The notes under the pieces: model-generated
What the model was told of the DNA's origin: nothing
The model's input: the letters and a program-made list of their open reading frames with translations, nothing else
Database searches by the model: none
In this document: in pieces, positions 5,507 to 35,042 of the stretch
How positions within the stretch are numbered: the stretch's first letter is position 1
Layout of the letters: each line of letters opens with the position of its first letter
Program-made: the position numbers and the translations under genes
NCBI GenBank assembly: GCA_043815345.1
Contig: JBDRJA010000131.1
Coordinates: 1 to 48,506, forward strand
DNA length: 48,506 nt
Reading direction: 5' to 3'
Source: Patescibacteria group bacterium
Lineage (GTDB): Bacteria; Patescibacteriota; Patescibacteriia; Patescibacteriales; CAYMCJ01

Positions 5507-6949
5507 TTATTTCTTAGAATTATCTCTAGTATAATGCCTAGCTCCTCTAAACTTAGTTATCTTGCCGCTATATAAATCAGCTAATTGTTGAATTAACCAT
5601 CTAGCCTCGTCCATGTCTCCTTTTGTGTGTTTATAATGATCAAGTATTAAATCAGTGTTTATCTCTAAAAGCAACTCATAGGCTTTTTTGTCCGGCATAT
5701 CCATAATATTTATTAACATCAAATCTGAATTTTTAAATTTTTTAAAAAAATCCTCTGGCCCCTTTAACTTGCCTTGATCAATTAATTTATAATACAGATC
5801 CGAACCCGGATACGGAGTTACTGGCCTAATAGTACGGCATTGATAATAGGTATTATACTCTTTTATAAATTTGACGTTTCGCCTTAAGGTGCGTTCGTCA
5901 TCCCCTAAATTATTCCAGATAAAATTTAAACCCATACCAACGCCGCCGATATCTTTAATTAATTTAAGAACTTCTATATTCTTTTTAACGGTTGTATTTT
6001 TATTCATTAATTGTAAAACTTTGTCGTCGCTTGACTCAAAACCAATACAAATAAATTGGCAACCGCACCTTTTTAAAATCTCCACAATTTCTTTATCCAT
6101 TATATCAACCCGGGCGTCACAAAGAAATTTAATTTTTAAATTATTATCTTTTAACGCTTGTTCAAATTCTAGAAGCCGTTCTTTGCTAAAAACAAATAAT
6201 TCATCCTCAAAAAGATAGCAGTTAATTCCGTATTTTTCATATAATATTTTTAATTCTTCAATTACATTCTTTATGCTCCTTGCTCTAATTCCTTTTTCCA
6301 TCCGATAACAAAAATTGCACCTATTGATACAGCCTCGGCTAGTAATTATTACCAGACTCTTTTCATGCGGCTCCTGATTATACATCCGGCTACAAGTTGT
6401 ATATTTATCCATGGGGAATATTTCCCAAAGGGGCATTGGAATTTCGTCTAAATTGGTAACTAATTTATTTTGACCGGTTAATTTTAATTCGTTATTATCT
6501 AAATACGCTATTCCTTTTACTTTAGATAAATCGCCGTTTTTGACTTTGCATTCAAGCAGGTCAACAATGGTATTTTCGGCTTCTCCTATGGCTATTATAT
6601 CGGCTTTAGTTTTTTTAAGCATATATTCGGGAATGGGCGAAGGGCCATGGCCGCCAAGGACAAACCAAGCAGTTTTCTTGTTTTCATTAATAACTTTACA
6701 TAAATCTATAATAGTCTCTTTAAATCTCGCTGCTAAAAAACCCAGGCAGATCAAATCATAATTATTTTTTTGTAAAAAATCTGCTAACTGTTGGTTAGTA
6801 TAATGGAACACATCCATGGAATAAGCTTCTACATGAGCGCCATTCTTATTAAGCATTGCCGCCAAATATGCAGGGCCTAAAGGAAAATGATTATCTTCCT
6901 GATAAAGATCATGAATTATAAATAATACTTTATTATTTTTAGTAAACAT
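5507..6949 (-). CDS. B12-binding-domain radical SAM protein (class B rSAM), paralogue 1
   Basis: N-terminal Rossmann-like B12-binding region (VLFIIHD...IAIGEAENT) and CxxxCxxC in SRGCINRCNFCY. Confidence 0.85.
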   Translation of the reverse strand: MFTKNNKVLFIIHDLYQEDNHFPLGPAYLAAMLNKNGAHVEAYSMDVFHYTNQQLADFLQKNNYDLICLGFLAARFKETIIDLCKVINENKKTAWFVLGGHGPSPIPEYMLKKTKADIIAIGEAENTIVDLLECKVKNGDLSKVKGIAYLDNNELKLTGQNKLVTNLDEIPMPLWEIFPMDKYTTCSRMYNQEPHEKSLVIITSRGCINRCNFCYRMEKGIRARSIKNVIEELKILYEKYGINCYLFEDELFVFSKERLLEFEQALKDNNLKIKFLCDARVDIMDKEIVEILKRCGCQFICIGFESSDDKVLQLMNKNTTVKKNIEVLKLIKDIGGVGMGLNFIWNNLGDDERTLRRNVKFIKEYNTYYQCRTIRPVTPYPGSDLYYKLIDQGKLKGPEDFFKKFKNSDLMLINIMDMPDKKAYELLLEINTDLILDHYKHTKGDMDEARWLIQQLADLYSGKITKFRGARHYTRDNSKK

Positions 6950-6957
6950 ACTAAATC

Positions 6958-8751
6958 TTATTTTCTTAAATTAAACATCTTATAATAATAAGATTCTTTA
7001 TCTTTCAACATCTTGTCTGGCGATCCTTCCTCTACAATTTTTCCGTCTTTTAATATCATTAACTTATCAGAATTAATAACCGTTGACAATCTGTGGGCAA
7101 TAACTAAGACAGTCACTTTATTTTTTAAATTTTCTATAACCCGCTGTATCTTAATTTCTGACTCATTATCCAAGGCGCTGGTGGCTTCGTCTAATATTAA
7201 TATTTTTGGCTGTCTGGCTAAAACCCTGGCTATTACTATGCGCTGACGCTGGCCAACCGAAAGCGACATTCCTCTTTCACCGATAACAGAAGAAAAATTA
7301 TCTGGTAAGCTTTGAATAAAATTATATATATTAGCCATCTTAGCCGCTTCTTCCATTTCTTTATTAGTAATTGATTTATCATAAAATTTAATATTATTGG
7401 CAACAGTATCATTCATTAAAAATATATCCTGCGATACATAGCCAATATTTTTCCTCCATTTTTCCATATTAATGTCGGTAATATTTCGGCTATCCAATAA
7501 AATTTCACCTATAACCGGGTCCAGCAAACGTAAAAATAAATCAACCATGGTGGTTTTCCCAGCTCCTGAAGAACCAATTAATCCGACCATCTCTCCTTTT
7601 TTAATCTTAAAATTTATACCTGATAATACTTGCCTGCCTGATGAATATGAAAAACCGACATTTTTAAATTCTAATTCATTATTAAATTTAAAATTCTCTG
7701 ACCCGCCCTTGGCTTCTTTACTTTCAAGGGCTTGTTCCTGATATTTTAAAACGCTTTTTAAATAAGGGGCGACTTCGTTTGTGGTATGCAGGTTTGCCTG
7801 CAGTTGCTGAAAATATATAAACATTCTCTGAACTAAATATATAATTACCGCCAAAGAAGCGAAGTTAAAGCCGGGCGTTTTATAAGTAAAAGCAAAAATT
7901 AAGCAAATGAAAATTAGGCTTATGGGTTGCATCATTGAACCGCTAATATTCGCCAATAAAAATATTTTAATTTTGAATTTTCTTAACTTATTAAAATACT
8001 CTTTGCCTATATTTTCTACTTTTTCGCCAATCGCCATTGCCTTAACTGTTTTCATGCCAATAATATTTTCATTTACAAAATGCGCAACTTGCTTGTTTAC
8101 AACTTCGGCTTCGGTAGATACTAACCGACTTCTATATATTAAAGGCTTAAAAACAAGAAACAAAATTCCGCCGGTAATAAAAACAATGATAGTAATATAC
8201 AAAGAAATATTAATTGCCACGATTGTATATATTGTTAAAGATGCCAAAATCGTAAGCACCGTGCCAATTTGTTCTAAAAGTATTGATCCAGTTTTAATAT
8301 TTGTCATTAATATAGTTTCTAAATATCCGACTTTTTGCTTAGATAAATACGGCCAGGCAGATTGCAGGGTGGTATGGAATATATTATTTCTTGTTTTTTC
8401 TTCATATTCAGCCGTTATTTTAATTTTTATATAACTAATTATAACTAAAGTAACTGCTCTTATAATAAACATTAATGAGATAAAAATAAGTAAATATTTG
8501 ACGCTAAAATTAATATTTAGAAATGAAAATGCGTTACCGATAAATTGCGATATTGGGTCATCGGCTACTCCACCCTGGCCACCCATAGCAATAGAAAATA
8601 AAGGAATCAACGCATTCACGCCAATTCCTTCTAAAATACCGCCAATAAAGCCTAGCCCGGTTAAAATTATAATTTGCAGCTTGTATTCGCCAAAAGCTTG
8701 CTGCGCTAGTCGTAGTATTATTACTATTCGGCTGTCTTTTAATAGTATCAT
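6958..8751 (-). CDS. ABC transporter, fused permease/ATPase half-transporter (MsbA/PglK-like exporter)
   Basis: Six N-terminal TM helices. Walker A GSSGAGKTT, signature LSVGQRQR, Walker B ILILDEATSALD. Confidence 0.9.
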   Translation of the reverse strand: MILLKDSRIVIILRLAQQAFGEYKLQIIILTGLGFIGGILEGIGVNALIPLFSIAMGGQGGVADDPISQFIGNAFSFLNINFSVKYLLIFISLMFIIRAVTLVIISYIKIKITAEYEEKTRNNIFHTTLQSAWPYLSKQKVGYLETILMTNIKTGSILLEQIGTVLTILASLTIYTIVAINISLYITIIVFITGGILFLVFKPLIYRSRLVSTEAEVVNKQVAHFVNENIIGMKTVKAMAIGEKVENIGKEYFNKLRKFKIKIFLLANISGSMMQPISLIFICLIFAFTYKTPGFNFASLAVIIYLVQRMFIYFQQLQANLHTTNEVAPYLKSVLKYQEQALESKEAKGGSENFKFNNELEFKNVGFSYSSGRQVLSGINFKIKKGEMVGLIGSSGAGKTTMVDLFLRLLDPVIGEILLDSRNITDINMEKWRKNIGYVSQDIFLMNDTVANNIKFYDKSITNKEMEEAAKMANIYNFIQSLPDNFSSVIGERGMSLSVGQRQRIVIARVLARQPKILILDEATSALDNESEIKIQRVIENLKNKVTVLVIAHRLSTVINSDKLMILKDGKIVEEGSPDKMLKDKESYYYKMFNLRK

Positions 8752-8755
8752 CTAT

Positions 8756-9004
8756 TTACCACTTATTAATTTTATTAACGACTTTTTGTTTTATATTTAA
8801 ATATGATCTTACTGCTTTTTTCTCAACCTTGGGCGACACTAGACGCAGTATTTCTTTGCCCAAAATACGATATTGCCCACCAACCTTATTAGCCCTAATA
8901 AACCCATTTTTAAGCATGCGCTTAATAGTACTATTACTTATCTTTAATAGCTCTTGAGTTTCATTAGTGGTATAGACAGCATTTGATTTTATCTCTTGGT
9001 CCAT
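8756..9004 (-). CDS. Small helix-turn-helix DNA-binding protein (excisionase/MerR-type HTH)
   Basis: TTNETQELLKISNSTIKRMLKNGFIRANKVGGQYRI matches the excisionase-family HTH pattern. ATG at 9004 is preferred over the longer ORF to 9055. The stop lies 4 nt before the ABC exporter start. Confidence 0.6.
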   Translation of the reverse strand: MDQEIKSNAVYTTNETQELLKISNSTIKRMLKNGFIRANKVGGQYRILGKEILRLVSPKVEKKAVRSYLNIKQKVVNKINKW

Positions 9005-9147
9005 ATATATTTTGTTATATATATCATTATATATTAGAAGGTCAAAAGGTGTCAATAGGTGTCAAATTCTCATTTTTTATGTAAAAAATCAGTTTATCAT
9101 TAATAAATAATGTAAATTCAAAATACAAAAAATACCAGCCATAACAA

Positions 9148-10611
9148 TCAATGTTTTTCAAGCTTAGTTATGTATTTAAAATAGAAAGGTATGTAGTGCC
9201 TAAAAGTCTTAGCTAGATTTCTCCAGCTAGACTGCTTTAAAACAGACTTATAACCATAGAAACCAAAAAATATCCAGGTGTATAACCCCGAAAGAGGAAG
9301 CGATATAAGAAGCTTGGTAAATGGTCTTAACACTGGAAACTGTACTATAATACCAAAGAGTTTGTGCAAATTTATTATTTGGCGGTTTAATTTCTTATTA
9401 CCAAAATCAAGTATTGAAGTTGTCTTATTTGAAACATGTATTTTTTCAAAATCTGAATTAAACATACCCTTTTCAATGGCTATTTGTTCTATTTCCGTTC
9501 CGGGATAGGGGTATAAAATTGAGCTCCAGGCGAACTGCGGCCTAACTTTTATATTAAAATCAAGTGTCTCAAAATCTACTTCAAGCGGGTTCTCAACTGG
9601 CAGACCTATTAAGTTTTGTGTAAAAATATTAATTTTATTTTTTCGAAGTATTTCACTTGACTGCAGTATTTGTTCATTTGTAATTGAGCGTCTGAGGATT
9701 TTATCGGCTACCTCATTATTGCCGCATTCCACTCCCATCCAAACATATTTACATCCAGCTTTTTTAAGAAGCCTCCCAATTTCTTCCTGGCACATTAGAT
9801 TTGCGCGGACATTACAGCTAAATGGCAGATTTATCTCACTAGAAAATTTTTCAGCGAATTCTTTTAGCCACCCCTTTGGCTTTAACAAAAACGTATCATC
9901 GTCAAGGCATACATTATCCAGGCCGTAGTTAGCCTTAACCTGTTTCATTTCAGCAATTAAGTTATCTACGGATCTATAACGAAGCAAAGATCCTTTACCG
10001 CGGGTCATTCTATTATAGGTATGGTTAAAGCAGTAAGTGCAATTATAGGGGCAGCCGCGCATAGCCATGAAAAGCTTGTTTCCCTTAGATGCTATTACTG
10101 GGTCAGCGCTATACATAATTTCCCTGTCGGGAAACGGCAGGCTGTCAAGGTCTTCAACGAGAGGCCCGAGTTCATTTCTAATAATAGTGCCGTCAGATTT
10201 CTTAAAGAAAAAATTATTTATGTTTAAATAATTTTCCCCATGCTCCAACTTTTCCAGAAGTTCAGGAAAAGCAATATCCCCTTCGCCCCGGCAGACAGCA
10301 TCCACGCCTTCCTTTCTAATTATTGATGGGTGGAAGGTGGCGTGGGGACCGCCAAATACAGAGAAACATTTATAATGTTTCTTTATCATTTTATTTAAAT
10401 CAAGGTGGTAATTATGCTCACCAGTCATAATGCTGTAGGCGATAACTTTAGGCGCATACTCTTTAACTTTGGCGACAATTTCCTCGTCAGAATACTCTTC
10501 GGTTAGAATTAATTTTGCTTCATGCTTCCGATCTTTTATTATGCTCGAGAGTGTCATTATTCCAAGCCGTTCTTGCATGCCCGTATTTTTCTGTAAAAAG
10601 AGGACTTTCAT
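9148..10611 (-). CDS. B12-binding-domain radical SAM protein (class B rSAM), paralogue 2
   Basis: MRGCPYNCTYCF cluster motif and VCRGEGDIAF in the B12 domain. The start at MKVLFLQ (ATG 10611) parallels the N-termini of the paralogues; the ORF track extends to 10659. Confidence 0.85.
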   Translation of the reverse strand: MKVLFLQKNTGMQERLGIMTLSSIIKDRKHEAKLILTEEYSDEEIVAKVKEYAPKVIAYSIMTGEHNYHLDLNKMIKKHYKCFSVFGGPHATFHPSIIRKEGVDAVCRGEGDIAFPELLEKLEHGENYLNINNFFFKKSDGTIIRNELGPLVEDLDSLPFPDREIMYSADPVIASKGNKLFMAMRGCPYNCTYCFNHTYNRMTRGKGSLLRYRSVDNLIAEMKQVKANYGLDNVCLDDDTFLLKPKGWLKEFAEKFSSEINLPFSCNVRANLMCQEEIGRLLKKAGCKYVWMGVECGNNEVADKILRRSITNEQILQSSEILRKNKINIFTQNLIGLPVENPLEVDFETLDFNIKVRPQFAWSSILYPYPGTEIEQIAIEKGMFNSDFEKIHVSNKTTSILDFGNKKLNRQIINLHKLFGIIVQFPVLRPFTKLLISLPLSGLYTWIFFGFYGYKSVLKQSSWRNLAKTFRHYIPFYFKYITKLEKH

Positions 10612-10733
10612 AAGTAATTTATTCTTTAATTTATATACAATACCCAAATTATGTTCCAATTAGAATGAATTTGTGAAGACATGGGGAAATAACGGTTCGC
10701 GGGCTATTTATAAATCGTATATTCTAAATAATA

Positions 10734-12560
10734 TTAAAATTTATATATAAATATATCGTTACTCTGAAATACTAATTCTGTATCTGAAAATTGATTAATA
10801 ATCTCTTCTTCCAACGGACCAGTTGATAATATATAATCCAAACGATATTTCTTTAATTCTGTTTCGAAATCTTTCGCCAAAAATTCTTGATAATCTTTCG
10901 GGAATTTTTTTAATCTTTCTTCTAGTAATGGGTCAAAAGAATCGGGAAATTGCCTTACGTTATGTATGCCTTGCCAATTAGAAGCTAGAACTCCCTGGAT
11001 TGCTCTCTTATTATCTTCTAAATATTGACTAATATTTTCACGGCCGATTCCGCCTAAACGTATATTTACCATATAATTATAATGAAGACGTTCGGAAGGC
11101 ATTAAAGAAAATCCCCAACCACCGGCATAAACATTGCAATGAGTGAAAGCGGGGATTAAATTATTTAAACCATAGCCCTCTTTTTTAGGCTCAATAACAA
11201 GAACTACGCAATCTTTCTGACGATTATTCAACCAATCAAAAGCTGGTTTATATGTTTGTAATTTAGTAAAATAATTAAAATTATTACTATAGGTTCCGGC
11301 TTGAATCCAAATACCATAAACGAAAGATGAACTAATTACTATTAGCATTATTAGCCTCCATAAATTCCAAAATTTTATTTTAATTACATTATAAATTAAT
11401 ACCAATACTACGACCATTGATAATGGTATGGTATATTGAACAAAATGGAACGGCCAAATCGTAATCCCGGTAATTATTTGCTGACTAAAAACTAAAAAAC
11501 CTCCAAAAATAAATGATAAACAAAATATACGCCAAGGTTTTAAGTTTGATAAGCTAAATTGCCCCTTAGAAATTGATCTATTATTAACAATTAATCTAAG
11601 CTTTTTGTAAAATGTGGGAACGGACAAAATGAAATAAAATAGCAAAGTAGCTAATAAAACTTTATTAAATATCGGATAATGCGTATAAAATAAGCCTGTC
11701 CTAAGAACAGACTCTTTATATAACAAACTTTTATTTGCCTGATATGACATATACCAATATGGTAAAGTTAATATAATTGTTAAAAAGCCTATCACAGCAA
11801 AACCTTTAACTATAACAAACTTCTTTAGCGCAAAATAAATAATGCTTAATACTGCTAAAATTGATAAAGCTAAGCCCCAGCTGAAAAAATAACTACCAAT
11901 CATTAAAGATAAAAAAATGCTAGCAAATATAATCAATGTTTTTTTGTATTTATTATTATTTGCAATTGACCAAAGGCATAACAAAAATGAAAATAAAAAA
12001 ATAGCTCCTAACACAGGGTTAACAGGCCTTGACCACAAAAGAAAACTACTCGCAATTCTATCCCCCGTTAAATAGATCCATAAACTTCGGTAATCCACTA
12101 AGTCATAGCCCAAAACTATGAGCAGGGCTCCGCTAATTGCATTTATTTTATTAGACAATAAATTAACATTTGCTGCGAGCTTATGAATTAAAAAATAAGC
12201 CAAAAGGAATAAAATAAAAGGTAAAATAAATTTACTGGCGATTGATACATTCGTTAATGAAATTCCAAATAATAAACTCGGAAGAGCATAAAACATCTCT
12301 CCTACGGGGGGCATTAGCGGCCACTCATCTTTATATTCAAAAAATACCGGAGATCCTAGTAGATAGTGCCCGTCTATAATATCTCTCATCCTGAATAAAT
12401 AAGCGTCTTCGTTGGCAGTGCCCATCATTGGTATGCCTTGATACTTATCTCCTAAGGACATAATACCAATAAGATGGGGCATTAAATAAATCAGGCCTAC
12501 TAAAGTTGCAAAAATTAAAGCTAAATAATGTTTCTTTAAAAAAATTTTAGTTTTATTCAT
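10734..12560 (-). CDS. Large polytopic membrane protein (about 12-14 TM plus C-terminal soluble domain), function unknown, possibly GT-C/polymerase-like
   Basis: 608-aa ORF. Hydrophobic helices run through about aa 430, followed by a ~170-aa hydrophilic tail. No diagnostic motif recognised. Confidence 0.55.
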   Translation of the reverse strand: MNKTKIFLKKHYLALIFATLVGLIYLMPHLIGIMSLGDKYQGIPMMGTANEDAYLFRMRDIIDGHYLLGSPVFFEYKDEWPLMPPVGEMFYALPSLLFGISLTNVSIASKFILPFILFLLAYFLIHKLAANVNLLSNKINAISGALLIVLGYDLVDYRSLWIYLTGDRIASSFLLWSRPVNPVLGAIFLFSFLLCLWSIANNNKYKKTLIIFASIFLSLMIGSYFFSWGLALSILAVLSIIYFALKKFVIVKGFAVIGFLTIILTLPYWYMSYQANKSLLYKESVLRTGLFYTHYPIFNKVLLATLLFYFILSVPTFYKKLRLIVNNRSISKGQFSLSNLKPWRIFCLSFIFGGFLVFSQQIITGITIWPFHFVQYTIPLSMVVVLVLIYNVIKIKFWNLWRLIMLIVISSSFVYGIWIQAGTYSNNFNYFTKLQTYKPAFDWLNNRQKDCVVLVIEPKKEGYGLNNLIPAFTHCNVYAGGWGFSLMPSERLHYNYMVNIRLGGIGRENISQYLEDNKRAIQGVLASNWQGIHNVRQFPDSFDPLLEERLKKFPKDYQEFLAKDFETELKKYRLDYILSTGPLEEEIINQFSDTELVFQSNDIFIYKF

Positions 12561-12566
12561 AGTCTA

Positions 12567-14161: not shown

Positions 14162-14162
14162 A

Positions 14163-14753: not shown

Positions 14754-14822
14754 TTTAGTAGAATGTAACTAATATTATAGATATTATCGTTCATTCTATT
14801 CATATTTAAAAGGAGGTTTAAA

Positions 14823-15332: not shown

Positions 15333-15365
15333 TCTTGACTAAAATTACCAGTCAAGATTTTTTTA
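15332..15365. terminator. Hairpin terminator between convergent genes
   Basis: 9-bp stem ATCTTGACT (15332-15340) / AGTCAAGAT (15350-15358), 9-nt loop, then a T-run on the plus strand. Lies between the plus-strand gene stop and the asnB-like stop at 15363. Confidence 0.55.
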
Positions 15366-17238: not shown

Positions 17239-17241
17239 AAT

Positions 17242-23496: not shown

Positions 23497-23666
23497 AATT
23501 ATTTTCTAAAGCTTAATAAATTTTTTACTCAAGGCTCAAAAGTAGCCCTAATTGCTGCAATTGTAACATAATATTATGAATAATAACAGGACTAGCTAAT
23601 CTTTACAAACATATATAACTGGTCAATTAATTTTTGAATAAAAAATATTTGGCGCCATTATAATAA

Positions 23667-26401: not shown

Positions 26402-26411
26402 TTTATTTAAT

Positions 26412-27812: not shown

Positions 27813-27816
27813 TACG

Positions 27817-29292: not shown

Positions 29293-29315
29293 AAAATTTT
29301 ATTAATATGCAATCG

Positions 29316-30665
29316 CTATATAAACCAGCCAAGCCTTTCTCTAAATTTTTCAAAACTAAATATTAAATCAATAATACCGTTTGTAAATATTATGATGATT
29401 GACGCCCATAAAACTCGGCTTAACCACCACTTTTTATTCTGGTACAAATAAACCATAAAAAGGCCGGCAAAAATAGCTAACAGCGGGTAAATTTGAAACC
29501 GATATCTTGTTTCTACAACAGAAATAAAAATTATTAAAGGAGTAATTATAGTAAAAGCTGATAAATATTTCAATTTTTCATTTTTTGATTTAAAAAATTT
29601 TATTATACCCGCTAGGCTGAATACAAATAATATAATTGAGGCAAAAGTCGAAGAAATTAAAACTGTAAATTGGCCCCAACCGGATTGGTAAAACCAAAAT
29701 CCTATTGGCCGAATTATACTAAAATATTTATTAATGCGCAAAAAGGTCAGCTTAGTGAACTCTAGCGGATAATTAATGATAAAACTAGTAAACTGCCTTA
29801 TGGATTCGCTTGTTATTTCTGTTGCCCCGTAAGCAGTTATATATTCTCTAGCCTCTGCCGGGGCTTCTTGTTCTCCGTTAGCGCCATGATAATTTCCTAT
29901 CCAGAAATTAAAAGCTCCTGAAGTGCCGAATGGTAATAATTTATTATAAACAGAATAATTCCTAGCTGTCCAAGGCGCGAAAACTAAACTCATAGTAATA
30001 ATAAATAAAACGCAGTAAAAAAATTTTTTCTTTTTATAAAAATAGTAAATTATAATCGGAACTAAAAATAAAACTGGCGTTCGAGCTAAGGTGGCCAAAC
30101 CAAAAACTAAGCCTAATAGAATTGCTATCCAAATATTAAATTTATTAAAAAATCTAAAAAATAAATATAGAGCTAAAGCAAATAGAAATAAATAGAAAGT
30201 CTCGGTCATTAACATAGCAGAAATTTCTATTAAATCTGGGTAAAAACCAAAAATAGCCGCCGCCGCCAAACCCGTCTTTTCTTTATGTTCTTTACTTTCA
30301 AAAATTATAAGGCATATTAAATAAACCAGCCAAGCCGTTATCGCATGCATTATAGCCTGCATTATCCAGACAGCTTCGTAGTTATGCCCGAAAACAGAAT
30401 AAATTCCGGCTAAAAAAAATTCATACAATGGCCCGACTCTTTCTATTGAATTGTCATGTAATATATCTCCTTCAATACTTTCTCTATAACCGTTGCCATT
30501 AACAATATTTATTGCAATGTTATCATATCCGCGAGCATCAACTGCTGGTATAATTTTAAAGTAAAAAGAATATGATAAGCTAAAAACAAAACTAAAAAAT
30601 ATAATTAAAACTAAAATTTTATTTTTTACAAATGTCTTTCTTAATTTATTTTTTATATTTTGCAT
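29316..30665 (-). CDS. GT-C fold membrane glycosyltransferase (ArnT/PMT_2, GT39/83-like), paralogue A
   Basis: 449 aa and multi-TM. VDARGYDNIAINIVNGNGY loop motif and PWTARNY. Confidence 0.75.
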   Translation of the reverse strand: MQNIKNKLRKTFVKNKILVLIIFFSFVFSLSYSFYFKIIPAVDARGYDNIAINIVNGNGYRESIEGDILHDNSIERVGPLYEFFLAGIYSVFGHNYEAVWIMQAIMHAITAWLVYLICLIIFESKEHKEKTGLAAAAIFGFYPDLIEISAMLMTETFYLFLFALALYLFFRFFNKFNIWIAILLGLVFGLATLARTPVLFLVPIIIYYFYKKKKFFYCVLFIITMSLVFAPWTARNYSVYNKLLPFGTSGAFNFWIGNYHGANGEQEAPAEAREYITAYGATEITSESIRQFTSFIINYPLEFTKLTFLRINKYFSIIRPIGFWFYQSGWGQFTVLISSTFASIILFVFSLAGIIKFFKSKNEKLKYLSAFTIITPLIIFISVVETRYRFQIYPLLAIFAGLFMVYLYQNKKWWLSRVLWASIIIIFTNGIIDLIFSFEKFRERLGWFI

Positions 30666-32055
30666 ATAAAAATTTAAACAAAGCTAAGCCGCCTTTTACT
30701 TCTTGTATAAATTGGTCCCAACTTCTTATATTAGACAAACGGCGTAATATTATTTTTGGCCTAAAATAAAATTTTCGATGAGCTAAATTATAATAATATT
30801 GCAATTTTTCTCGATTTAAACCCGGTAATTCTAAAACTACATTGGAATAGCTATAATCATCCCAGTTAAAACTCTTAATATAACCCTTTTCCTTGGCCCA
30901 GAAAAACATCTCTGTCCCGGGGTAAGGAATAGTAATATTAAATATGGCTTCGTTCGGATCAAGCTCAATGGCAAAATCAATTGTTCTCTTTATAGTATCT
31001 TCTGTTTCTCCCTGATTGCCGAACATAAAAGAGGCCCTGGTGTCTAAACCAACTTTTTTAGCTAAATCCATAGCTTTCTTAACCTGCTTTAAAGAAATTC
31101 TTTTATTAATATTTTCTAGAATCTTTTCATCAGCTGATTCTACGCCTATTAATATAGAGTGGCAACCTGCCTTTTTCATAATTCTAAATAAATCCTCATC
31201 AACACAATCAACTCTAGTCAAACAGGACCAAGTAATATCTATCTTTTCTTCAATAACAATACGGCAAAATTCTTCCACCAAATCTCTAAAAATAGTAAAG
31301 GTATCATCATAAAAAGCAATTTCTTTTATGCCATACTTTGCCTGCAAAATATTTATCTCGTTAATAATATTTTTAGCTGATCTTTTTCGGACCCTACCTC
31401 TAAAAGTACGGTAACAATATGTGCAACGGCCCGGACAACCCCTAGTCGCCAATATTGACATTGAAGGCAGCCTCTTATAACCGCCTATTGGGGGATGATA
31501 CTTGTCTATGGGCAATAAATGATAAGCTGGAGGCGGGATATTATCCAAACTAGCGACCAATGGCCTTAAACTATTTTTAATTATCTTATTATTCTTTTTG
31601 TAATACAAGCCTAAAATATCCTCCACATTTTTACCATCAACTAGCTCTTTCATGGTTTCCTCCCCTTCGTCAATTACTAAATAATCTACATAATCTTTAG
31701 CTAAAATCTCATCTGGATAAACTGAAGCGTGAACTCCTCCGAAAACTATCTTAGCGTTAGGAAAAATTTTTTTAGATTCCTTGGCAATCGCTAAGGCATT
31801 ATTTATTAGAGGCGTAGTAGCTGTAAAACCAATAAAATCTATGCCACTATATTTATCTTCCAGTACTTTTTTAGTATCGCCAACCGTTAGCTGCTCAGCT
31901 GAACAATCTAAATAATATACTTTATGTTTAGACTGCTCCAAGACAGCCGCAATATAAGCGAGCCCTAAGCTAGGCCAGGAAGCCGCTACTTCTTTCCATA
32001 GATTCTTGTCTTCGCCTATTACCCAGGGGGGGTTAATTAGTAATACGTTTTTCAT
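30646..32055 (-). CDS. B12-binding-domain radical SAM protein (class B rSAM), paralogue 4
   Basis: TRGCPGRCTYCY and LVIDEGEETMKEL. Its 3' end overlaps the start of the downstream GT-C gene by 20 nt. Confidence 0.85.
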   Translation of the reverse strand: MKNVLLINPPWVIGEDKNLWKEVAASWPSLGLAYIAAVLEQSKHKVYYLDCSAEQLTVGDTKKVLEDKYSGIDFIGFTATTPLINNALAIAKESKKIFPNAKIVFGGVHASVYPDEILAKDYVDYLVIDEGEETMKELVDGKNVEDILGLYYKKNNKIIKNSLRPLVASLDNIPPPAYHLLPIDKYHPPIGGYKRLPSMSILATRGCPGRCTYCYRTFRGRVRKRSAKNIINEINILQAKYGIKEIAFYDDTFTIFRDLVEEFCRIVIEEKIDITWSCLTRVDCVDEDLFRIMKKAGCHSILIGVESADEKILENINKRISLKQVKKAMDLAKKVGLDTRASFMFGNQGETEDTIKRTIDFAIELDPNEAIFNITIPYPGTEMFFWAKEKGYIKSFNWDDYSYSNVVLELPGLNREKLQYYYNLAHRKFYFRPKIILRRLSNIRSWDQFIQEVKGGLALFKFLYAKYKK

Positions 32056-32057
32056 TT

Positions 32058-32771
32058 TTATAAAAATCTATTTTTGATTAAAGTCCAAACCGCGCTTGCT
32101 CCATCTTTCCAGCCAATTTTTTTTCCTGCCGCGTAATCACGAGGGTCATAGTCAATCGGCACTTCACTAATTACAAACTTATTTTTCATTAATTGCGCTG
32201 TAATTTCCGGTTCAATATTAAAACGCTCTGATTTTAGATTAAGTTTATTTAGCGCCTCTCGGGTCATCAGCTTGTAACCGGTTTCCATGTCAGTTACTTT
32301 TTGGCCATATAAAACAGTGGTAAGCATTGATAAAACTTTATTGCCAATATAGTGCCAGGGCATAAGGGTTTTCTCTTCGCCAAAAAATTTTAATTTTTTC
32401 AATGATTCGCCTAAAAACCTTGACCCATATACGACTTTCACTTCTGGTTGTTGTATTTTTCCCAATATATCCTTTAGATTTTCCGGATTGTATTCTAAAT
32501 CCGCATCATGGCAAATAATATAATCACCCGTAGCAGCGTCGTAGCCGGTGCGCATGCCCTTGCCCTTGCCGTAATTTTTATCATGATAAATAATCTTATA
32601 TTTATTTTCTAAGGTTCTTAGAAATTCTCTAGTCCCATCAGTTGAATAATCATCTACTATAATTATTTCTTTTTCAAAAGCGCTTAAGTCCACCCGCTCA
32701 ATTCTTTGTAAAATTATTTCTAAAGTTTTAATCTCATTATAAACTGGCAGGATAATAGATAATTTAGGCAT
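32058..32771 (-). CDS. GT2-family glycosyltransferase (soluble, DPM1/dolichyl-P-glucose synthase-like)
   Basis: LSIILPVYNE, VDDYSTDGT and CHDADLEYNP. Confidence 0.8.
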   Translation of the reverse strand: MPKLSIILPVYNEIKTLEIILQRIERVDLSAFEKEIIIVDDYSTDGTREFLRTLENKYKIIYHDKNYGKGKGMRTGYDAATGDYIICHDADLEYNPENLKDILGKIQQPEVKVVYGSRFLGESLKKLKFFGEEKTLMPWHYIGNKVLSMLTTVLYGQKVTDMETGYKLMTREALNKLNLKSERFNIEPEITAQLMKNKFVISEVPIDYDPRDYAAGKKIGWKDGASAVWTLIKNRFL

Positions 32772-32775
32772 AATT

Positions 32776-33603
32776 TTAATTTTTAATATTTAACTGTTTT
32801 TTTAGTCCCTCCCTAAAAGAGGTTGGGTTTATTTTAAAAATTTTCGGCCAATTATCACCCTGATAAATTTCGCTAGCCAATAATGTTCTAACCTGCCAAT
32901 ATGGCATTGGAGATATTGGAGTAAGAGAAAAAATTTTAATTAGCCAATTAAAAACAAAGGGTAAGTTTATTATTTTTAATTTATAACCTAAAGATTTTAA
33001 AGCTTTAATAATATCATAATAACTAATAGTTTCAAGTCCAACTAAATTATACTTTTGATTAACTGGCATCTTAAGACTGGCACTGATAATTTTTACTAAA
33101 TCGTCAATAAAGAGGGGCTGCATTAAAAATTTAAATACCGGTACAAGCGGCAACCTCCTTATTAAATTAAGTAAAAAGCCAAGATTTTTTTTATCGCCTG
33201 GACCAAACACCAGGTTTGGCCTAAGAATTATATAAGAAATTCCAGAATTAACTATGAGCTTTTCCGCTTCTTTTTTTGAATTAATATAGGGATCTTGAAA
33301 TCGCGATAAGACTCGGGCCGTGGAAAGAAAAATTATTCTTCCAACTTTACGTCCCTGGCAGAATTCAATTAAATTTTTTGTGCCCTCATAATTAGCCTGC
33401 CAAATTTGCTTTTTATTCCTGCCGCCAAGTTTGCCGGCCAAATGAATTACCGCTTCAATTTCTTCTTTACTATTAAACCTATCAAAATTTTCTTTTTTAG
33501 TGGTATCATCTAAAAATAAAATAATTCTTTCACCCTTGCTCTCAAGGTAGGGCTTAAGATGGGAACTTATAAATCCTTTTCTGCCTGTTATTAATATGGC
33601 CAT
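32776..33603 (-). CDS. NAD-dependent epimerase/dehydratase family (extended SDR) protein
   Basis: ILITGRKGFISSHL glycine-rich loop and a YxxxK catalytic motif (YINSKKEAE). Confidence 0.8.
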   Translation of the reverse strand: MAILITGRKGFISSHLKPYLESKGERIILFLDDTTKKENFDRFNSKEEIEAVIHLAGKLGGRNKKQIWQANYEGTKNLIEFCQGRKVGRIIFLSTARVLSRFQDPYINSKKEAEKLIVNSGISYIILRPNLVFGPGDKKNLGFLLNLIRRLPLVPVFKFLMQPLFIDDLVKIISASLKMPVNQKYNLVGLETISYYDIIKALKSLGYKLKIINLPFVFNWLIKIFSLTPISPMPYWQVRTLLASEIYQGDNWPKIFKINPTSFREGLKKQLNIKN

Positions 33604-34943
33604 AAAAATTTTTCAAATACATATTTAGGCATATGCTTCAAAATATAGGGCAATCGAAAATAATACGATACAAAGGCTTTTTCTTTTAAATTCAATAAAT
33701 CTTTTTTATCTATATTGTTATGTCGATACACCGGAGTATAAGAATCATATCTTTGCCAATTTGACTCTATAATTCTCTGCTCTTTTGATAATTTACTGTA
33801 GAATTCTGTATTAGGGTAAGGAGTACTAATAGAAAACTGAGCCACTAAAGTATTTAATTTTTGGGAATAATTGATTGTACTATTAATACTTTCCGTAGTA
33901 TCGTCTTCTAGGCCTAGTATATAAAAAGCAGCAATTGAAATACCATTTTTATGACAATATTCAATTATCTCTTCTTGGTGATTGATCTTTATAGGTAAGC
34001 GTCTTGATTTTTTAAGTATCTCTTCGCTAGAAGATTCTATCCCAATATTAAAATTTTTTAATCCAGCGCTTTTCATTGCTTTGATTAAGTCTTTATCAAG
34101 ACAATCTAGGCGAGTTTCGCAAGACCAGGTAATTTTTATTTTTTCTTTTTTTATCTTTTCACATAATTTATATATGCGCTCCTTATCTAAAGTAAAGATG
34201 GCGTCTCGAAAATCTATAGCTTTAATTTTATATTCTTTTTTTAAATATAAAATTTCTTCCATGATGTTATCTACACTTCTGGTTCGCCACATTCTACCAG
34301 CCATAATAGTATAGGGGCAATAATATCGGCAGGTATAAGGACAACCCCGGGAAGTTAGCATAGTTAAGACTGGTTTCTTGTTTAACGCCGGAGAATAGTA
34401 AAATTTATTTATATTAAAAAAATTCCAATCTGGAAAAGGCAATTTATCTATATTTCTAATTAATTCAGCTTCAAATATGCCTTCTGGAATTTTTTTATCT
34501 TCTAATATTTTTAAAATCCCTGATTCTGCCTCGCCTTTTATAACGAAATCTGCATCTTTAGAAAAATATTCAGGCACGGCTGAAGCAAAAGTACCGTAAA
34601 CTCCAACTTTTACACCTTTTTGCCTTATTTTTTTTACTATTTCTAGTTCGTTTTGACAATCTACGATTGAAGTATGTACTAAAGCCAAATCAGCCTGACT
34701 AATTTTTAGATTGTCGTCTTTCACTTCTACTAATTCTACCTCCCAACCAGCTTTCTTAAATATTGCTATTAAATAAGCTAGTGTTATATCAGGTAATATT
34801 ACGTTTCTCTTTTTTACATATTCAAAAATCCTTGCTCGCAAAGAATTACCAACCCAAGTCCTGGTCCCCATTCCTCCAGCTAAATCTTTGTTTACGCACC
34901 CTTTGTCATTTTTGGCTTGTATATCAAATAATAATACTTTCAT
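33591..34943 (-). CDS. B12-binding-domain radical SAM protein (class B rSAM), paralogue 5, with atypical Cx3Cx3C spacing
   Basis: SRGCPYTCRYYCPY and VIKGEAESGIL. ATG 34943 (MKVLLFD) is preferred; the 12-codon extension to 34979 is translation of the intergenic repeat and uses a GTG start. Confidence 0.8.
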   Translation of the reverse strand: MKVLLFDIQAKNDKGCVNKDLAGGMGTRTWVGNSLRARIFEYVKKRNVILPDITLAYLIAIFKKAGWEVELVEVKDDNLKISQADLALVHTSIVDCQNELEIVKKIRQKGVKVGVYGTFASAVPEYFSKDADFVIKGEAESGILKILEDKKIPEGIFEAELIRNIDKLPFPDWNFFNINKFYYSPALNKKPVLTMLTSRGCPYTCRYYCPYTIMAGRMWRTRSVDNIMEEILYLKKEYKIKAIDFRDAIFTLDKERIYKLCEKIKKEKIKITWSCETRLDCLDKDLIKAMKSAGLKNFNIGIESSSEEILKKSRRLPIKINHQEEIIEYCHKNGISIAAFYILGLEDDTTESINSTINYSQKLNTLVAQFSISTPYPNTEFYSKLSKEQRIIESNWQRYDSYTPVYRHNNIDKKDLLNLKEKAFVSYYFRLPYILKHMPKYVFEKFLWPY

Positions 34944-34957
34944 AAATAATACAAATG

Positions 34958-35042
34958 TACAAATAAATACAAATAACACAAATTCTGCTTTTCGAATTTT
35001 ATTTATTTGTGTTATTTGTATTTATTTGTAATTCGTAGTCTT
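34958..35042. repeat. Copy of a dispersed 38-bp AT-rich repeat, arranged as a perfect 26-bp inverted repeat (hairpin)
   Basis: TACAAATAAATACAAATAACACAAAT (34958-34983) is the exact reverse complement of 35005-35030. 35005-35042 matches the 38-bp unit at 39679 and 39724 at 35/38 positions. Confidence 0.85.

What the first reader, a model, noticed from the sequence alone, without database searches (positions are those of the whole stretch)
5507..34979. About 30 kb single-strand glycan/glycolipid locus with five B12-binding radical SAM paralogues, a SPASM radical SAM and seven methyltransferases
Seen: 28 co-directional, often overlapping minus-strand ORFs (27 genes, counting the split asnB-like gene as one), interrupted only by one small plus-strand gene. 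They include five paralogous class-B-type radical SAM proteins with cluster motifs SRGCINRCNFCY, MRGCPYNCTYCF, SRGCPFNCQFCY, TRGCPGRCTYCY and GCPYTCRYYC, each with an N-terminal GEGE/GEAE-type B12-domain signature. The locus also has one SPASM radical SAM and six class I SAM methyltransferases (a seventh lies at 1854-2843). It has three GT2, two GT4 and two ArnT/PMT-like GT-C enzymes, and two further 608- and 734-aa polytopic membrane proteins. An AsnB-like amidotransferase, an SDR epimerase and an MsbA/PglK-like ABC exporter complete it. No Wzx/Wzy/Wzz genes were recognised. Established: characterised class B radical SAM enzymes (GenK, Fom3, HpnP, TsrM, BchE) do cobalamin-dependent methylation or rearrangement at unactivated carbons. 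As far as I know, ordinary O-antigen or capsule loci rarely carry even one. Inference: the locus makes a heavily radical-tailored (C-methylated?) and O/N-methylated envelope glycan or glycolipid of unknown structure. If the host is a CPR bacterium without cobalamin synthesis, the pathway would rely on scavenged B12. This is my top candidate for an undescribed pathway.
Basis: partly seen in the sequence, partly recalled or inferred. Interest (0 to 1): 0.78.

Follow-up and report, generated by a model that had tools for sequence, protein, structure and literature searches.

The report
Radical-SAM-tailored surface glycan gene cluster
This is a large cell-surface sugar-polymer gene cluster from an uncultured Patescibacteria bacterium in which radical enzymes are wired between the enzymes that load sugars onto a lipid carrier and those that transfer them outside the cell; one three-gene core recurs across many phyla and has never been studied.

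Summary
HMM searches confirm five B12-domain-type radical SAM (rSAM) paralogues, one SPASM rSAM, six (+1) methyltransferases, three GT2, two GT4, two PMT_2 GT-C enzymes, an AsnB-like gene, an SDR and an ABC exporter, all on the minus strand.

Corrections:
- I count 26 ORFs, not 28.
- A 99-aa HTH_17 gene was missed.
- The locus runs on past 5507 to the window's left edge (WbuX/HisH/HisF, methyltransferase, EamA, PseF-like).
- The 608-aa protein is a GT-C-fold enzyme; the 734-aa protein probably is too.

None of the five rSAMs reaches the cutoff of any named family. Their nearest relatives are HpnJ, BchE and AprD4, which are not methylases. One paralogue (33591-34979) carries AprD4's unusual CX3CX3C cluster motif, has a sub-threshold B12 domain, and overlaps an SDR gene. 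It looks like an AprD4/AprD3-type deoxygenation pair.

The main result is a conserved cassette: a polyprenyl-phosphate-type GT2, then an HpnJ-like rSAM, then a GT-C. It occurs in Patescibacteria, DPANN archaea, Elusimicrobia and other phyla. This suggests a radical tailoring step inside a three-component extracytoplasmic glycosylation system. I found no paper describing it. The chemistry and any cobalamin dependence remain unproven.

The parts
33591..34979 (-). AprD4-like radical SAM (462 aa; 450 aa from the internal Met). Has a CX3CX3C cluster motif and a degenerate N-terminal Rossmann/B12-like domain. First gene of the locus.
   Evidence: PF04055 scores 64 bits; PF02310 scores 25.8, below the cutoff. 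Best PDB hit is AprD4 6fd2, E=5.8e-33, with GCPYTCRYYCPY aligned to GCPYPCRFYCPY. NF033070 AprD4 scores 154 bits, below the 500 cutoff. The motif is conserved in orthologues.
32776..33603 (-). SDR (NAD-dependent epimerase/reductase family) that overlaps the AprD4-like gene by 13 nt. Proposed reductase partner.
   Evidence: PF01370 E=1e-18. The same rSAM-SDR overlap is found in L015, L019, L021 and L087.
32058..32771 (-). GT2a, 237 aa with no TM segment. Candidate polyprenyl-phosphate sugar synthase.
   Evidence: Best PDB hits are P. furiosus Dol-P-Man synthase 5mlz (2.4e-14), ArnC and GtrB. NCBIfam hits: AglJ 106 bits, PpgS, Dol-P-hexose transferase. Invariant residues D41, D45, D89-x-D91 and D161 in 43 orthologues.
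30646..32055 (-). HpnJ-like B12-domain radical SAM (469 aa), the anchor of the conserved cassette.
   Evidence: PF02310 88.6 bits and PF04055 109.6 bits. HpnJ TIGR03471 scores 274, below the 577.6 cutoff. 2626 homologues, with top hits at 56-77% identity.
29316..30665 (-). GT-C glycosyltransferase (PMT_2/ArnT-like, about 10 TM segments) that overlaps the rSAM gene by 20 nt.
   Evidence: PF13231 E=4e-12. Orthologues at 53-64% identity lie directly downstream of the rSAM in Patescibacteria. Invariant D43, D71, R76, D144 and E147.
27817..29292 (-). B12-domain radical SAM (491 aa).
   Evidence: PF02310 71.7 bits and PF04055 72.7 bits. Best families are BchE and HpnJ, both below cutoff. PDB hits: QCMT 9ccb and AprD4. 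Recurs next to a GT4 in L009, L012, L017 and L021.
26412..27812 (-). Second PMT_2 GT-C enzyme (466 aa, about 9 TM segments).
   Evidence: PF13231 scores 27.1 bits, just above the cutoff. TM count.
25319..26401 (-). GT4 glycosyltransferase b.
   Evidence: PF00534 E=7e-26.
24303..25328 (-). Radical SAM/SPASM enzyme (341 aa).
   Evidence: PF04055 plus PF13186. No NCBIfam cutoff is reached. Weak PDB hits to BtrN, PqqE, BlsE and DesII. A 59%-identity orthologue lies in the same module in L021, and the gene is present in L087.
22954..24290 (-). Two class I SAM methyltransferases (23667-24290 and 22954-23496).
   Evidence: PF13489.
22188..22949 (-). GT2b (253 aa), overlapping the 734-aa membrane protein gene by 17 nt.
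   Evidence: PF00535. Weak best hits to PgfS and ArnC.
20000..22204 (-). 734-aa polytopic membrane protein, probably GT-C-like.
   Evidence: No Pfam match. AF2 model pLDDT 78.6, pTM 0.87. Foldseek best hit is AftA (3.5e-3, TM 0.35-0.41), then AglB, PglB, STT3 and ArnT. Only 11 homologues were found.
19334..19978 (-). Class I SAM methyltransferase.
   Evidence: PF08241.
18210..19328 (-). GT4 glycosyltransferase a.
   Evidence: PF00534.
17242..18186 (-). GT2c, ArnC/PgfS-like polyprenyl-phosphate glycosyltransferase with two C-terminal TM helices.
   Evidence: ArnC model NF007986 scores 228 bits over its full length; PgfS scores 168 bits. TM segments at 238-256 and 271-289.
15363..17238 (-). AsnB-like glutamine amidotransferase, split by a frameshift in a 10-base homopolymer at 16730-16739.
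   Evidence: GATase_6/7 plus Asn_synthase domains. Junction sequence. An intact 623-aa homologue sits in the same context in L088.
14823..15332 (+). Small membrane protein (weakly YdjM-like), the only plus-strand gene.
   Evidence: PF04307 scores 25.9 bits, below the cutoff. About 6 TM segments.
12567..14753 (-). Three overlapping class I SAM methyltransferases (14163-14753, 13397-14200, 12567-13427).
   Evidence: Pfam methyltransferase domains.
10734..12560 (-). 608-aa GT-C-fold glycosyltransferase of a family with no Pfam model that is widespread in Patescibacteria.
   Evidence: AF2 model pLDDT 87, pTM 0.90. Foldseek hits: PglB 5.6e-6, AglB, AftA, DPY19, ArnT, all with probability 1.0. 255 homologues, all unnamed. 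Flanked by methyltransferases in L085 and L086.
9148..10659 (-). B12-domain radical SAM (503 aa).
   Evidence: PF02310 55.4 bits and PF04055 81.6 bits. HpnJ scores 127 bits, below the cutoff. AprD4 is the best PDB hit.
8756..9055 (-).
   Evidence: PF12728 E=3.6e-11. The same HTH_17-ABC pair is present in L086.
6958..8751 (-). ABC exporter/flippase (fused TMD-NBD; HepA/MsbA/PglK-like).
   Evidence: Pfam ABC_membrane plus ABC_tran. HepA 331, MsbA 304 and PglK 234 bits, all below cutoffs.
5507..6949 (-). B12-domain radical SAM (480 aa), abutting the HisF/WbuZ-like gene.
   Evidence: PF02310 48.7 bits and PF04055 61.2 bits. BchE and HpnJ score about 125 bits, below cutoffs. AprD4 and OxsB are the best PDB hits.
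2851..5506 (-). WbuX/HisH/HisF(WbuZ)-type sugar amidation (acetamidino) module.
   Evidence: WbuX TIGR03573 scores 388 bits (cutoff 203). HisH scores 214 (cutoff 105). HisF scores 289 and WbuZ 266, both just below their cutoffs.
12..2843 (-). Methyltransferase (1854-2843), EamA/DMT membrane protein (846-1814) and PseF-like CMP-sugar cytidylyltransferase (12-755). The locus runs off the window here.
   Evidence: Pfam. PseF TIGR03584 scores 162, below the 205.7 cutoff.

Best explanation
The locus is a modular cell-envelope glycan or glycoconjugate cluster of a Patescibacteria bacterium. It is built largely from extracytoplasmic-glycosylation modules.

Proposed core module:
1. A short GT2 (32058-32771) loads a sugar onto polyprenyl phosphate at the cytoplasmic face.
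2. The HpnJ-like radical SAM enzyme (30646-32055) remodels that sugar by 5'-deoxyadenosyl-radical chemistry. Candidate reactions are ring contraction, C-branching/methylation, dehydration or epimerisation; which one is unknown.
3. After flipping, the GT-C enzyme (29316-30665) transfers the modified sugar to an acceptor outside the membrane.

Other proposed parts:
- The first two genes (AprD4-like rSAM with CX3CX3C motif, plus an overlapping SDR) form a dehydratase/reductase pair that deoxygenates a sugar without cobalamin.
- Three further B12-domain rSAMs and a SPASM rSAM do additional tailoring.
- So do six or seven methyltransferases, an AsnB-like amidotransferase and the WbuX/HisH/HisF amidation set.
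- Two more Pren-P-type GT2s and two more GT-C-fold proteins add parallel modules.
- Two GT4s build a cytoplasmic part.
- The ABC protein and/or the EamA protein flip or export intermediates.

Shown here: domain content, fold assignments, conserved gene order, shared motifs. Inferred: substrates, order of steps, the chemistry of each rSAM, the acceptor.
For: Core module:
- GT2a's best solved relatives are Dol-P-Man synthase, ArnC and GtrB. Its best NCBIfam hits are AglJ, PpgS and Dol-P-hexose transferase.
- GT2c matches ArnC over its full length at 228 bits and has two C-terminal TM helices.
- The order GT2, then rSAM, then GT-C, with 2-nt spacing and a 20-nt overlap, recurs elsewhere. For orthologues at 51% identity or more, a GT2 is adjacent in 26/29 loci, a polytopic membrane protein is downstream in 18/21, and both hold in 17/21.
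- These loci span Patescibacteria, Woesearchaeota/Nanoarchaeota, Elusimicrobia/Endomicrobiales and Brocadia.
- In an Endomicrobiales genome the three genes stand alone between thrS and infC.
- GT2a and the GT-C keep invariant acidic residues.

Relatives that act on already-glycosylated substrates:
- HpnJ is proposed to remodel lipid-linked glucosamine after the GT2 HpnI (PMC13459092).
- AprD4 dehydrates a sugar within a pseudodisaccharide and works with the reductase AprD3 (PMC5461906, PMC7941887).

AprD4-like pair: the cluster motif is shared with AprD4 and conserved in orthologues, and the SDR overlaps it in L015, L019, L021 and L087.

GT-C folds: 608-aa protein and 734-aa protein.

Precedent: tailoring of Und-P/Dec-P-linked sugars before GT-C transfer is established for ArnC/ArnD/ArnT (my own knowledge), DprE1/E2 and the Citrobacter ORF13 epimerase (PMC11127046).
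Against: There is no biochemical evidence. Gene order cannot show whether the rSAM acts on the lipid-linked sugar, on a nucleotide sugar, or on the finished glycan.

- No GtrA/SMR/MATE-type flippase is present next to the cassette in this window.
- No priming phosphoglycosyltransferase and no acceptor are identified.
- GT2a lacks TM helices and matches the Pren-P GT2 clade only below family cutoffs.
- Below about 47% identity (mostly Planctomycetota) the GT-C partner is absent and a GT2 is adjacent in only 9/35 loci. The cassette is therefore not a property of the whole rSAM clade.
- The 734-aa fold match is weak.
- AprD3's own sequence was not compared with the SDR here.
Confidence: 0.5

Rival explanations
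1. The five paralogues are true class B, cobalamin-dependent radical SAM methyltransferases that C-methylate sugars, as GenK and GenD1 do. The glycan is heavily C-methylated, and the cell must scavenge B12.
For: Four of the five exceed the Pfam B12-binding cutoff (48.7-88.6 bits). The GG-x-H-[AP]-[ST] stretch of that domain is intact in 30646-32055 and 9148-10659. Weaker hits exist to methylases QCMT, TokK, TsrM, CysS, HpnR and PhpK. Sugar C-methylation by class B enzymes is established in aminoglycoside pathways (PMC12931638).
Against: The top-scoring families for all five are HpnJ or BchE, followed by AprD4, ApyD or QCMT, and all scores fall below cutoffs. AprD4 is the best or second-best PDB hit for all five, and it binds no cobalamin despite a Rossmann-like N-domain (PMC12931638). 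33591-34979 has a sub-threshold B12 domain and the CX3CX3C motif. Six conventional methyltransferases already sit in the locus.
Confidence: 0.2
2. The rSAM enzymes act in the cytoplasm on nucleotide-activated sugars, before any glycosyltransferase. Their adjacency to GT2 and GT-C genes reflects only co-regulation within a sugar-specific sub-operon.
For: Most bacterial sugar tailoring (SDR, aminotransferase, WbuXYZ-type) happens at the nucleotide-sugar level. L065 places the rSAM between a UDP-GlcNAc-dehydrogenase-like enzyme, a GT2 and a PseC/ArnB-like aminotransferase. All rSAMs here are predicted soluble.
Against: The gene sits between the GT2 and the GT-C, not before the GT2, in nearly all cassettes. 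In the minimal Endomicrobiales cassette there is no nucleotide-sugar enzyme at all. The nearest characterised relatives, HpnJ and AprD4, act after glycosylation (PMC13459092, PMC5461906).
Confidence: 0.2
3. The cluster makes a secreted small oligosaccharide or aminoglycoside-like natural product rather than an envelope polymer. Alternatively, the rSAMs tailor lipids (hopanoid-, ladderane- or calditol-like head groups).
For: AprD4-like and BtrN-like (weak) rSAMs, GT4s, methyltransferases, AsnB and an ABC exporter resemble aminoglycoside clusters. Hits to the ladderane-lipid rSAM model score 74-128 bits. HpnJ and Cds remodel lipid head-group sugars (PMC13459092).
Against: The locus has four GT-C-type membrane transferases and three Pren-P-type GT2s. 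WbuXYZ and a PseF-like CMP-sugar enzyme are typical of surface glycans. No 2-deoxy-inosose synthase, aminotransferase, squalene-hopene cyclase or other lipid-synthesis gene is in the window.
Confidence: 0.07

Closest known systems
HpnI / HpnK / HpnJ (hopanoid cyclitol-ether side chain)
   Same: A GT2 attaches a hexosamine to a lipid, and then a B12-domain radical SAM enzyme is thought to remodel the lipid-linked sugar by ring contraction (PMC13459092). HpnJ is the best-scoring named family for four of the five paralogues (second, behind BchE, for the other two): 274 bits for 30646-32055.
   Different: The scores are far below the HpnJ cutoff of 577.6. No hopanoid genes are present. The partner GT2 here is of the polyprenyl-phosphate type, and a GT-C transferase follows, so the sugar is passed on rather than kept on the lipid.
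AprD4 / AprD3 (C3'-deoxygenation of paromamine in apramycin biosynthesis)
   Same: 33591-34979 shares AprD4's unusual CX3CX3C motif almost residue for residue. AprD4 is its best PDB hit (5.8e-33). It is translationally coupled to an NAD(P)-type reductase-family gene, matching the dehydratase-plus-reductase logic (PMC5461906, PMC7941887).
   Different: It scores only 154 bits against a cutoff of 500 for the AprD4 family model. The context is a surface-glycan locus in Patescibacteria, not an actinomycete aminoglycoside cluster. Homology of the SDR to AprD3 was not tested.
Three-component extracytoplasmic glycosylation systems with on-lipid tailoring (GtrA/B/C; ArnC/ArnD/ArnT; DprE1/E2 with arabinosyltransferases; Citrobacter ORF12-15)
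   Same: Both have a Pren-P-sugar synthase plus a GT-C transferase, with an auxiliary enzyme that changes the sugar between the two steps (PMC11127046). GT2c resembles ArnC over its full length, and GT2a resembles DPMS, AglJ and PpgS.
   Different: The auxiliary enzyme here is a radical SAM protein, not a deformylase or epimerase. No dedicated small flippase gene lies beside the cassette in this window.
Class B radical SAM sugar C-methyltransferases (GenK, GenD1, MoeK5)
   Same: Same two-domain architecture, and they act on carbohydrate substrates.
   Different: They are not the closest relatives by HMM or PDB search. Methyl transfer and cobalamin use are not shown here.

Membership tests
Class B (cobalamin-dependent) radical SAM enzymes | Radical SAM core with a CX3CX2C [4Fe-4S] motif | tested here: met
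   Met for four paralogues. 33591-34979 has CX3CX3C instead.
Class B (cobalamin-dependent) radical SAM enzymes | N-terminal B12-binding domain (PF02310) above the Pfam gathering score | tested here: met
   Scores are 48.7, 55.4, 71.7 and 88.6 bits against a cutoff of 32.1 for four paralogues. It is not met for 33591-34979 (25.8 bits).
Class B (cobalamin-dependent) radical SAM enzymes | The enzyme actually binds and uses cobalamin | not testable with these tools
   AprD4 and ArsL-type proteins fall in the same sequence network yet bind no cobalamin (PMC12931638). The rest of the genome is not available to check for B12 uptake genes.
HpnJ (TIGR03471) | Score at or above the curated equivalog cutoff of 577.6 bits | tested here: not met
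   Scores are 274, 172, 128, 127 and 122 bits for the five paralogues. Homologues in other phyla score 242-286 bits.
HpnJ (TIGR03471) | Hopanoid gene context (shc, hpnH, hpnI, hpnK) | tested here: not met
   None of these genes is in the window or in the neighbourhoods examined.
AprD4-family radical SAM diol dehydratase (NF033070) | CX3CX3C cluster motif | tested here: met
   GCPYTCRYYCPY in the window protein aligns with GCPYPCRFYCPY in 6fd2. The motif is conserved in five orthologues and in 38 of the 150 nearest representatives.
AprD4-family radical SAM diol dehydratase (NF033070) | Score at or above the curated cutoff of 500 bits | tested here: not met
   154.3 bits.
AprD4-family radical SAM diol dehydratase (NF033070) | Dedicated NAD(P)H reductase partner | tested here: inconclusive
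   An SDR gene overlaps by 13 nt, and the pairing recurs in at least four other loci. No AprD3 sequence was available for comparison.
Three-component extracytoplasmic glycosylation system | Polyprenyl-phosphate sugar synthase of the GT2 DPMS/GtrB/ArnC clade | tested here: met
   GT2a hits 5mlz, ArnC and GtrB and AglJ and PpgS. GT2c matches ArnC at 228 bits over its full length and has two C-terminal TM helices. This is by homology only; all scores are below equivalog cutoffs.
Three-component extracytoplasmic glycosylation system | GT-C-fold transferase genetically linked to the synthase | tested here: met
   PMT_2 proteins at 29316-30665 and 26412-27812. The 608-aa protein has a GT-C fold.
Three-component extracytoplasmic glycosylation system | Dedicated flippase for the Pren-P-sugar (GtrA, SMR or MATE type) | tested here: inconclusive
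   No GtrA, SMR or MATE domain was found in the window. An ABC exporter and an EamA/DMT protein are present. In L004 a 109-aa EamA protein and an unannotated 129-aa ORF precede the GT2-rSAM pair.
Wzx/Wzy-dependent O-antigen or capsule locus | Wzx flippase, Wzy polymerase, Wzz regulator and a priming phosphoglycosyltransferase | tested here: not met
   No Polysacc_synt, Wzy_C, Wzz, Bac_transf or Glycos_transf_4 hit in any window ORF. The window is cut at its left end, so these genes could lie beyond it.

The most novel reading that the evidence does not exclude
The GT2, HpnJ-like rSAM and GT-C cassette is an unrecognised and widespread 'radical' version of the three-component glycosylation system. 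It occurs in CPR bacteria, DPANN archaea, Elusimicrobia and other phyla. In this reading a radical SAM enzyme rewrites the carbon skeleton of a polyprenyl-phosphate-linked monosaccharide, for example ring contraction to a carbocycle, C-branching or deoxygenation, before a GT-C enzyme places it on the cell surface. The product would be surface sugars of a kind not yet described. The enzyme may do this without cobalamin in organisms that cannot make it.
Probability: 0.35. Interest if true: 0.8.

Novelty: new variant of a known kind. Interest (0 to 1): 0.62.

Why it matters
Patescibacteria and DPANN archaea are abundant, mostly uncultured, and live attached to host cells. Their surface glycans are essentially unknown, yet they probably mediate that attachment and set phage susceptibility.

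A conserved cassette that puts a radical enzyme between lipid-sugar synthesis and GT-C transfer would add a new type of tailoring step to a well-known glycosylation logic. It would also give the large, unassigned HpnJ/BchE-like part of the B12-domain radical SAM group a testable function.

The minimal three-gene version in Endomicrobiales makes the idea directly testable by heterologous expression. Whether these enzymes really need cobalamin matters for how cofactor-auxotrophic symbionts are understood.

Tried and rejected
- **Named-family assignment.** NCBIfam scans of all six rSAMs found no family cutoff reached. Planctomycete homologues that I suspected of being true HpnJ are not.
- **Sequence-only annotation of the 608- and 734-aa proteins.** Pfam gave nothing even at E up to 10, and the GT-C at 29316-30665 had no PDB sequence hit. 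Structure prediction was needed for the 608- and 734-aa proteins.
- **Literature.** Four searches for a described GT2-rSAM-GT-C system, or for B12-rSAM glycan loci in CPR bacteria, found nothing relevant. Two primary papers (AprD4/AprD3; calditol synthase) were not held.
- **Non-coding features.** Rfam and tRNA scans found only tRNA-Ser at 36503-36590, outside the locus. The promoter scan was not enriched over shuffles, although the best site lies upstream of the first gene.
- **Considered and rejected:**
  - A housekeeping BchE/HemN role, because of the GT linkage and the absence of tetrapyrrole genes.
  - A Wzy-dependent pathway, because its hallmarks are absent.
  - A uniform set of five methylases, because of the AprD4-type motif and the relatives listed above.
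- **Not attempted.** A tree against characterised class B enzymes, because their sequences could not be loaded. Family HMM scores were used as a proxy.

Full report
**1. What is in the sequence**

The window has 42 substantial ORFs, and all but one are on the minus strand.
- Five proteins with an N-terminal B12-binding-type domain and a radical SAM (rSAM) core: 5507-6949, 9148-10659, 27817-29292, 30646-32055 and 33591-34979.
- One radical SAM/SPASM protein (24303-25328).
- Six class I methyltransferases, plus a seventh at 1854-2843.
- Three GT2, two GT4 and two PMT_2 GT-C enzymes.
- An AsnB-like enzyme in two pieces, an SDR, and a fused ABC exporter.
- Two polytopic proteins of 608 and 734 aa with no Pfam match.

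The quoted iron-sulfur motifs are all present. No Wzx, Wzy, Wzz or priming phosphoglycosyltransferase domain was found.

Genes are packed with gaps mostly under 25 bp and with nine overlaps.

- I count 26 non-nested minus-strand ORFs, not 28.
- The 396-bp 'gap' at 8752-9147 holds a 99-aa HTH_17 gene.
- The asnB split is a frameshift inside a 10-base homopolymer at 16730-16739. A relative has an intact 623-aa gene in the same context.
- The locus does not end at 5507. HisF/WbuZ-like, HisH and WbuX follow with gaps of 0 or overlaps of 4 nt (WbuX scores 388 bits against a cutoff of 203). Then come a methyltransferase, an EamA protein and a PseF-like cytidylyltransferase, up to the window edge.
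- The right boundary is real. There is a 203-bp gap carrying the best promoter-like site in that region, then a Shedu gene, tRNA-Ser and housekeeping genes.
- GC content is 0.32 in the locus and 0.37 in the right flank.

**2. Host**

The exact proteins are annotated in NCBI as 'Patescibacteria group bacterium'. The nearest homologues come from Portnoybacteria, Falkowbacteria, Staskawiczbacteria and Niyogibacteria.

**3. What the radical SAM paralogues are**

They share only 25-31% identity with each other. None reaches the curated cutoff of any NCBIfam family.

Best scores are to HpnJ, BchE and AprD4:
- HpnJ: 274 bits for 30646-32055 and 172 bits for 33591-34979, against a cutoff of 577.6.
- BchE.
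- AprD4: 154 bits for 33591-34979, against a cutoff of 500.

Among solved structures, AprD4 (6fd2) is the best or second-best hit for all five. The glutamine C-methyltransferase QCMT (9ccb), OxsB, TokK, TsrM and CysS score lower.

These closest relatives are not methylases:
- HpnJ is thought to contract the ring of lipid-linked glucosamine (PMC13459092).
- BchE is a cyclase.
- AprD4 is a 1,2-diol dehydratase that works with the NADPH reductase AprD3 (PMC5461906, PMC7941887). It does not bind cobalamin despite its Rossmann-like N-domain (PMC12931638).

So the 'class B' label rests on architecture only. Cobalamin use is open.

**4. An AprD4-like deoxygenation pair**

33591-34979 differs from the other four. 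Its B12-domain score is below the Pfam cutoff (25.8 against 32.1). Its cluster motif is CX3CX3C.

In the alignment to AprD4 the motif reads GCPYTCRYYCPY against GCPYPCRFYCPY. Orthologues in L014, L015, L019, L021 and L033 keep it. An SDR gene overlaps the 3' end in L015, L019, L021 and L087, as it does here by 13 nt.

Among the 150 nearest 50%-identity cluster representatives, 38 have CX3CX3C and 103 have the canonical spacing.

I read this pair as a radical dehydratase plus ketoreductase that makes a deoxy sugar. This is inference from motif, similarity and linkage. The family cutoff is not met, and AprD3 itself was not compared.

**5. A conserved cassette: GT2, rSAM, GT-C**

30646-32055 belongs to a large and highly conserved family: 2626 hits at E<=1e-10, with the top 120 at 56-100% identity. 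Neighbourhood look-ups showed a GT2 of about 235 aa directly upstream and a membrane protein directly downstream in:
- a Portnoybacteria genome;
- a DPANN-like archaeal contig;
- an Endomicrobiales genome, where the three genes stand alone between thrS and infC.

A scan of one genome per species returned 79 loci from Patescibacteria, Woesearchaeota, Nanoarchaeota, Elusimicrobia, Planctomycetota, Brocadia, Omnitrophota and deltaproteobacterial MAGs.

For orthologues at 51% identity or more:
- a homologue of GT2 32058-32771 is adjacent upstream in 26/29 loci;
- a polytopic protein (at least 350 aa and at least 7 TM segments) follows within 2.6 kb in 18/21 loci;
- both hold in 17/21 loci.

With a GT2 HMM, adjacency on either side is 37/44 at 47% identity or more, and 9/35 below that. 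In the lower band (mostly Planctomycetota) the GT-C is missing. At least one locus still has a PpgS/AglJ-like GT2 upstream and a PseC/ArnB-like aminotransferase downstream.

**6. What the partners are**

- GT2 32058-32771 is closest to Dol-P-Man synthase (5mlz, 2.4e-14), ArnC and GtrB among structures. Among named families it is closest to AglJ, PpgS and Dol-P-hexose transferase. It keeps D41, D45, D89-x-D91 and D161 in 43 orthologues.
- GT2 17242-18186 matches ArnC over its full length (228 bits) and has two C-terminal TM helices.
- GT2 22188-22949 overlaps the 734-aa gene.
- The GT-C at 29316-30665 keeps D43, D71, R76, D144 and E147.
- The 608-aa protein models well (pLDDT 87, pTM 0.90). It matches PglB, AglB, AftA, DPY19 and ArnT with probability 1.0. 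It belongs to an unnamed family of more than 250 proteins found across Patescibacteria, always in glycan loci.
- The 734-aa protein models less well (pLDDT 78.6). Its best matches are again GT-C enzymes, but weakly (AftA 3.5e-3, TM 0.35-0.41). I call it probably GT-C-like.

The locus therefore has three Pren-P-type GT2s and up to four GT-C transferases. This points to assembly or decoration on the outer face of the membrane from lipid-phosphate-linked monosaccharides.

**7. Proposed mechanism**

- The GT2 loads a sugar on polyprenyl phosphate.
- The rSAM alters that sugar.
- The product is flipped.
- The GT-C transfers it to an acceptor.

Tailoring at the lipid-linked stage has precedents. These are ArnC/ArnD/ArnT (my own knowledge), DprE1/E2, and the SDR epimerase ORF13 of the Citrobacter three-component system (PMC11127046). 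HpnI/HpnJ is the closest analogue, with a GT2 followed by a related rSAM acting on a lipid-linked sugar (PMC13459092).

What is shown: homology, folds, motifs, gene order. What is inferred: the substrate stage, the reaction type, the acceptor and the flippase.

The other modules, also inferred:
- rSAM 27817-29292 with GT4 and SPASM, which recurs in L021 and L087.
- rSAM 9148-10659 beside the 608-aa GT-C.
- rSAM 5507-6949 beside the WbuXYZ-type amidation genes.

**8. How unusual the locus is**

Comparable loci are common in this group:
- A relative at 77% identity has the same right half at the same chromosomal site (pilin genes, ligA, gatCA upstream), without the Shedu gene and tRNA.
- Another genome shares the left-half elements and holds at least four B12-domain rSAMs in 22 kb.
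- A Portnoybacteria contig carries a comparable locus of at least 37 kb.
- 12 of the 79 loci have three or more such rSAM ORFs within about 21 kb.

The window is therefore one member of a recurring, mosaic locus type, not a one-off.

**9. Novelty and verdict**

No search term combination found a paper on this cassette or on rSAM-rich glycan loci in these phyla. The library lacks most subscription journals, so absence is not proof.

I rate it a new variant of a known kind: three-component glycosylation, or a surface-glycan locus, with a radical SAM tailoring step.

The interest is real, but it rests on inference. The minimal cassette makes the hypothesis cheap to test.

Noticed in passing
window 8756-9055 (-): A 99-aa HTH_17 (excisionase/MerR-like) gene lies in what looked like a 396-bp intergenic gap, directly upstream of the ABC exporter. 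The same HTH_17-ABC pair occurs in a Portnoybacteria locus (L086 11221-13296). It may be a locus regulator.
   Followed up: partly
window 16730-16739: The asnB-like gene is broken by a frameshift inside a 10-base A/T homopolymer. A relative (L088 17652-19523) has an intact 623-aa gene. This could be an assembly error, a pseudogene or a phase-variable tract.
   Followed up: partly
window 35183-36590 (-): A Shedu SduA defence gene (PADLOC 495 bits) and tRNA-Ser(GGA) lie between the glycan locus and maf/gatA. The syntenic relative L087 lacks Shedu, the tRNA and maf at this site and has a DsbA-like gene instead.
   Followed up: partly
window 42660-48299 (-): Three type IV pilin-like genes (N_methyl motif) and a 1145-aa secreted protein with Laminin_G_3/ConA-like lectin domains flank the region. 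Pilin-like genes lie at the same flank in L087. They are possible glycosylation targets or attachment factors.
   Followed up: no
L005 7579-11068: An Endomicrobiales genome carries only the three-gene cassette (GT2 233 aa, rSAM 468 aa, PMT_2 462 aa). It sits between thrS and infC with no other glycan genes nearby, which makes it an ideal minimal test system.
   Followed up: partly
L004 8509-13308: In a DPANN-like archaeal contig, a 129-aa ORF with no Pfam hit and a 109-aa EamA protein precede the GT2-rSAM pair; they could be an ArnE/ArnF-like flippase pair. A 618-aa membrane protein with no Pfam match follows the rSAM.
   Followed up: no
one search hits P0307, P0316, P0342, P0352, P0376, P0380: Some relatives of the AprD4-like rSAM are domains inside giant proteins of 1800-2600 aa with two to four matched stretches. 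These are multi-rSAM fusion proteins of unknown role.
   Followed up: no
window 12-34979 vs 36400-48506: The glycan locus has lower GC (0.32) than the adjacent housekeeping region (0.37). This fits a mosaic, exchangeable locus.
   Followed up: partly
L082 (Elusimicrobia), upstream of 5916-7481: WbuX-, HisH- and HisF-like genes sit directly next to an HpnJ-like rSAM, echoing the adjacency of rSAM 5507-6949 to HisF/HisH/WbuX in the window. This may link radical tailoring to sugar amidation.
   Followed up: no
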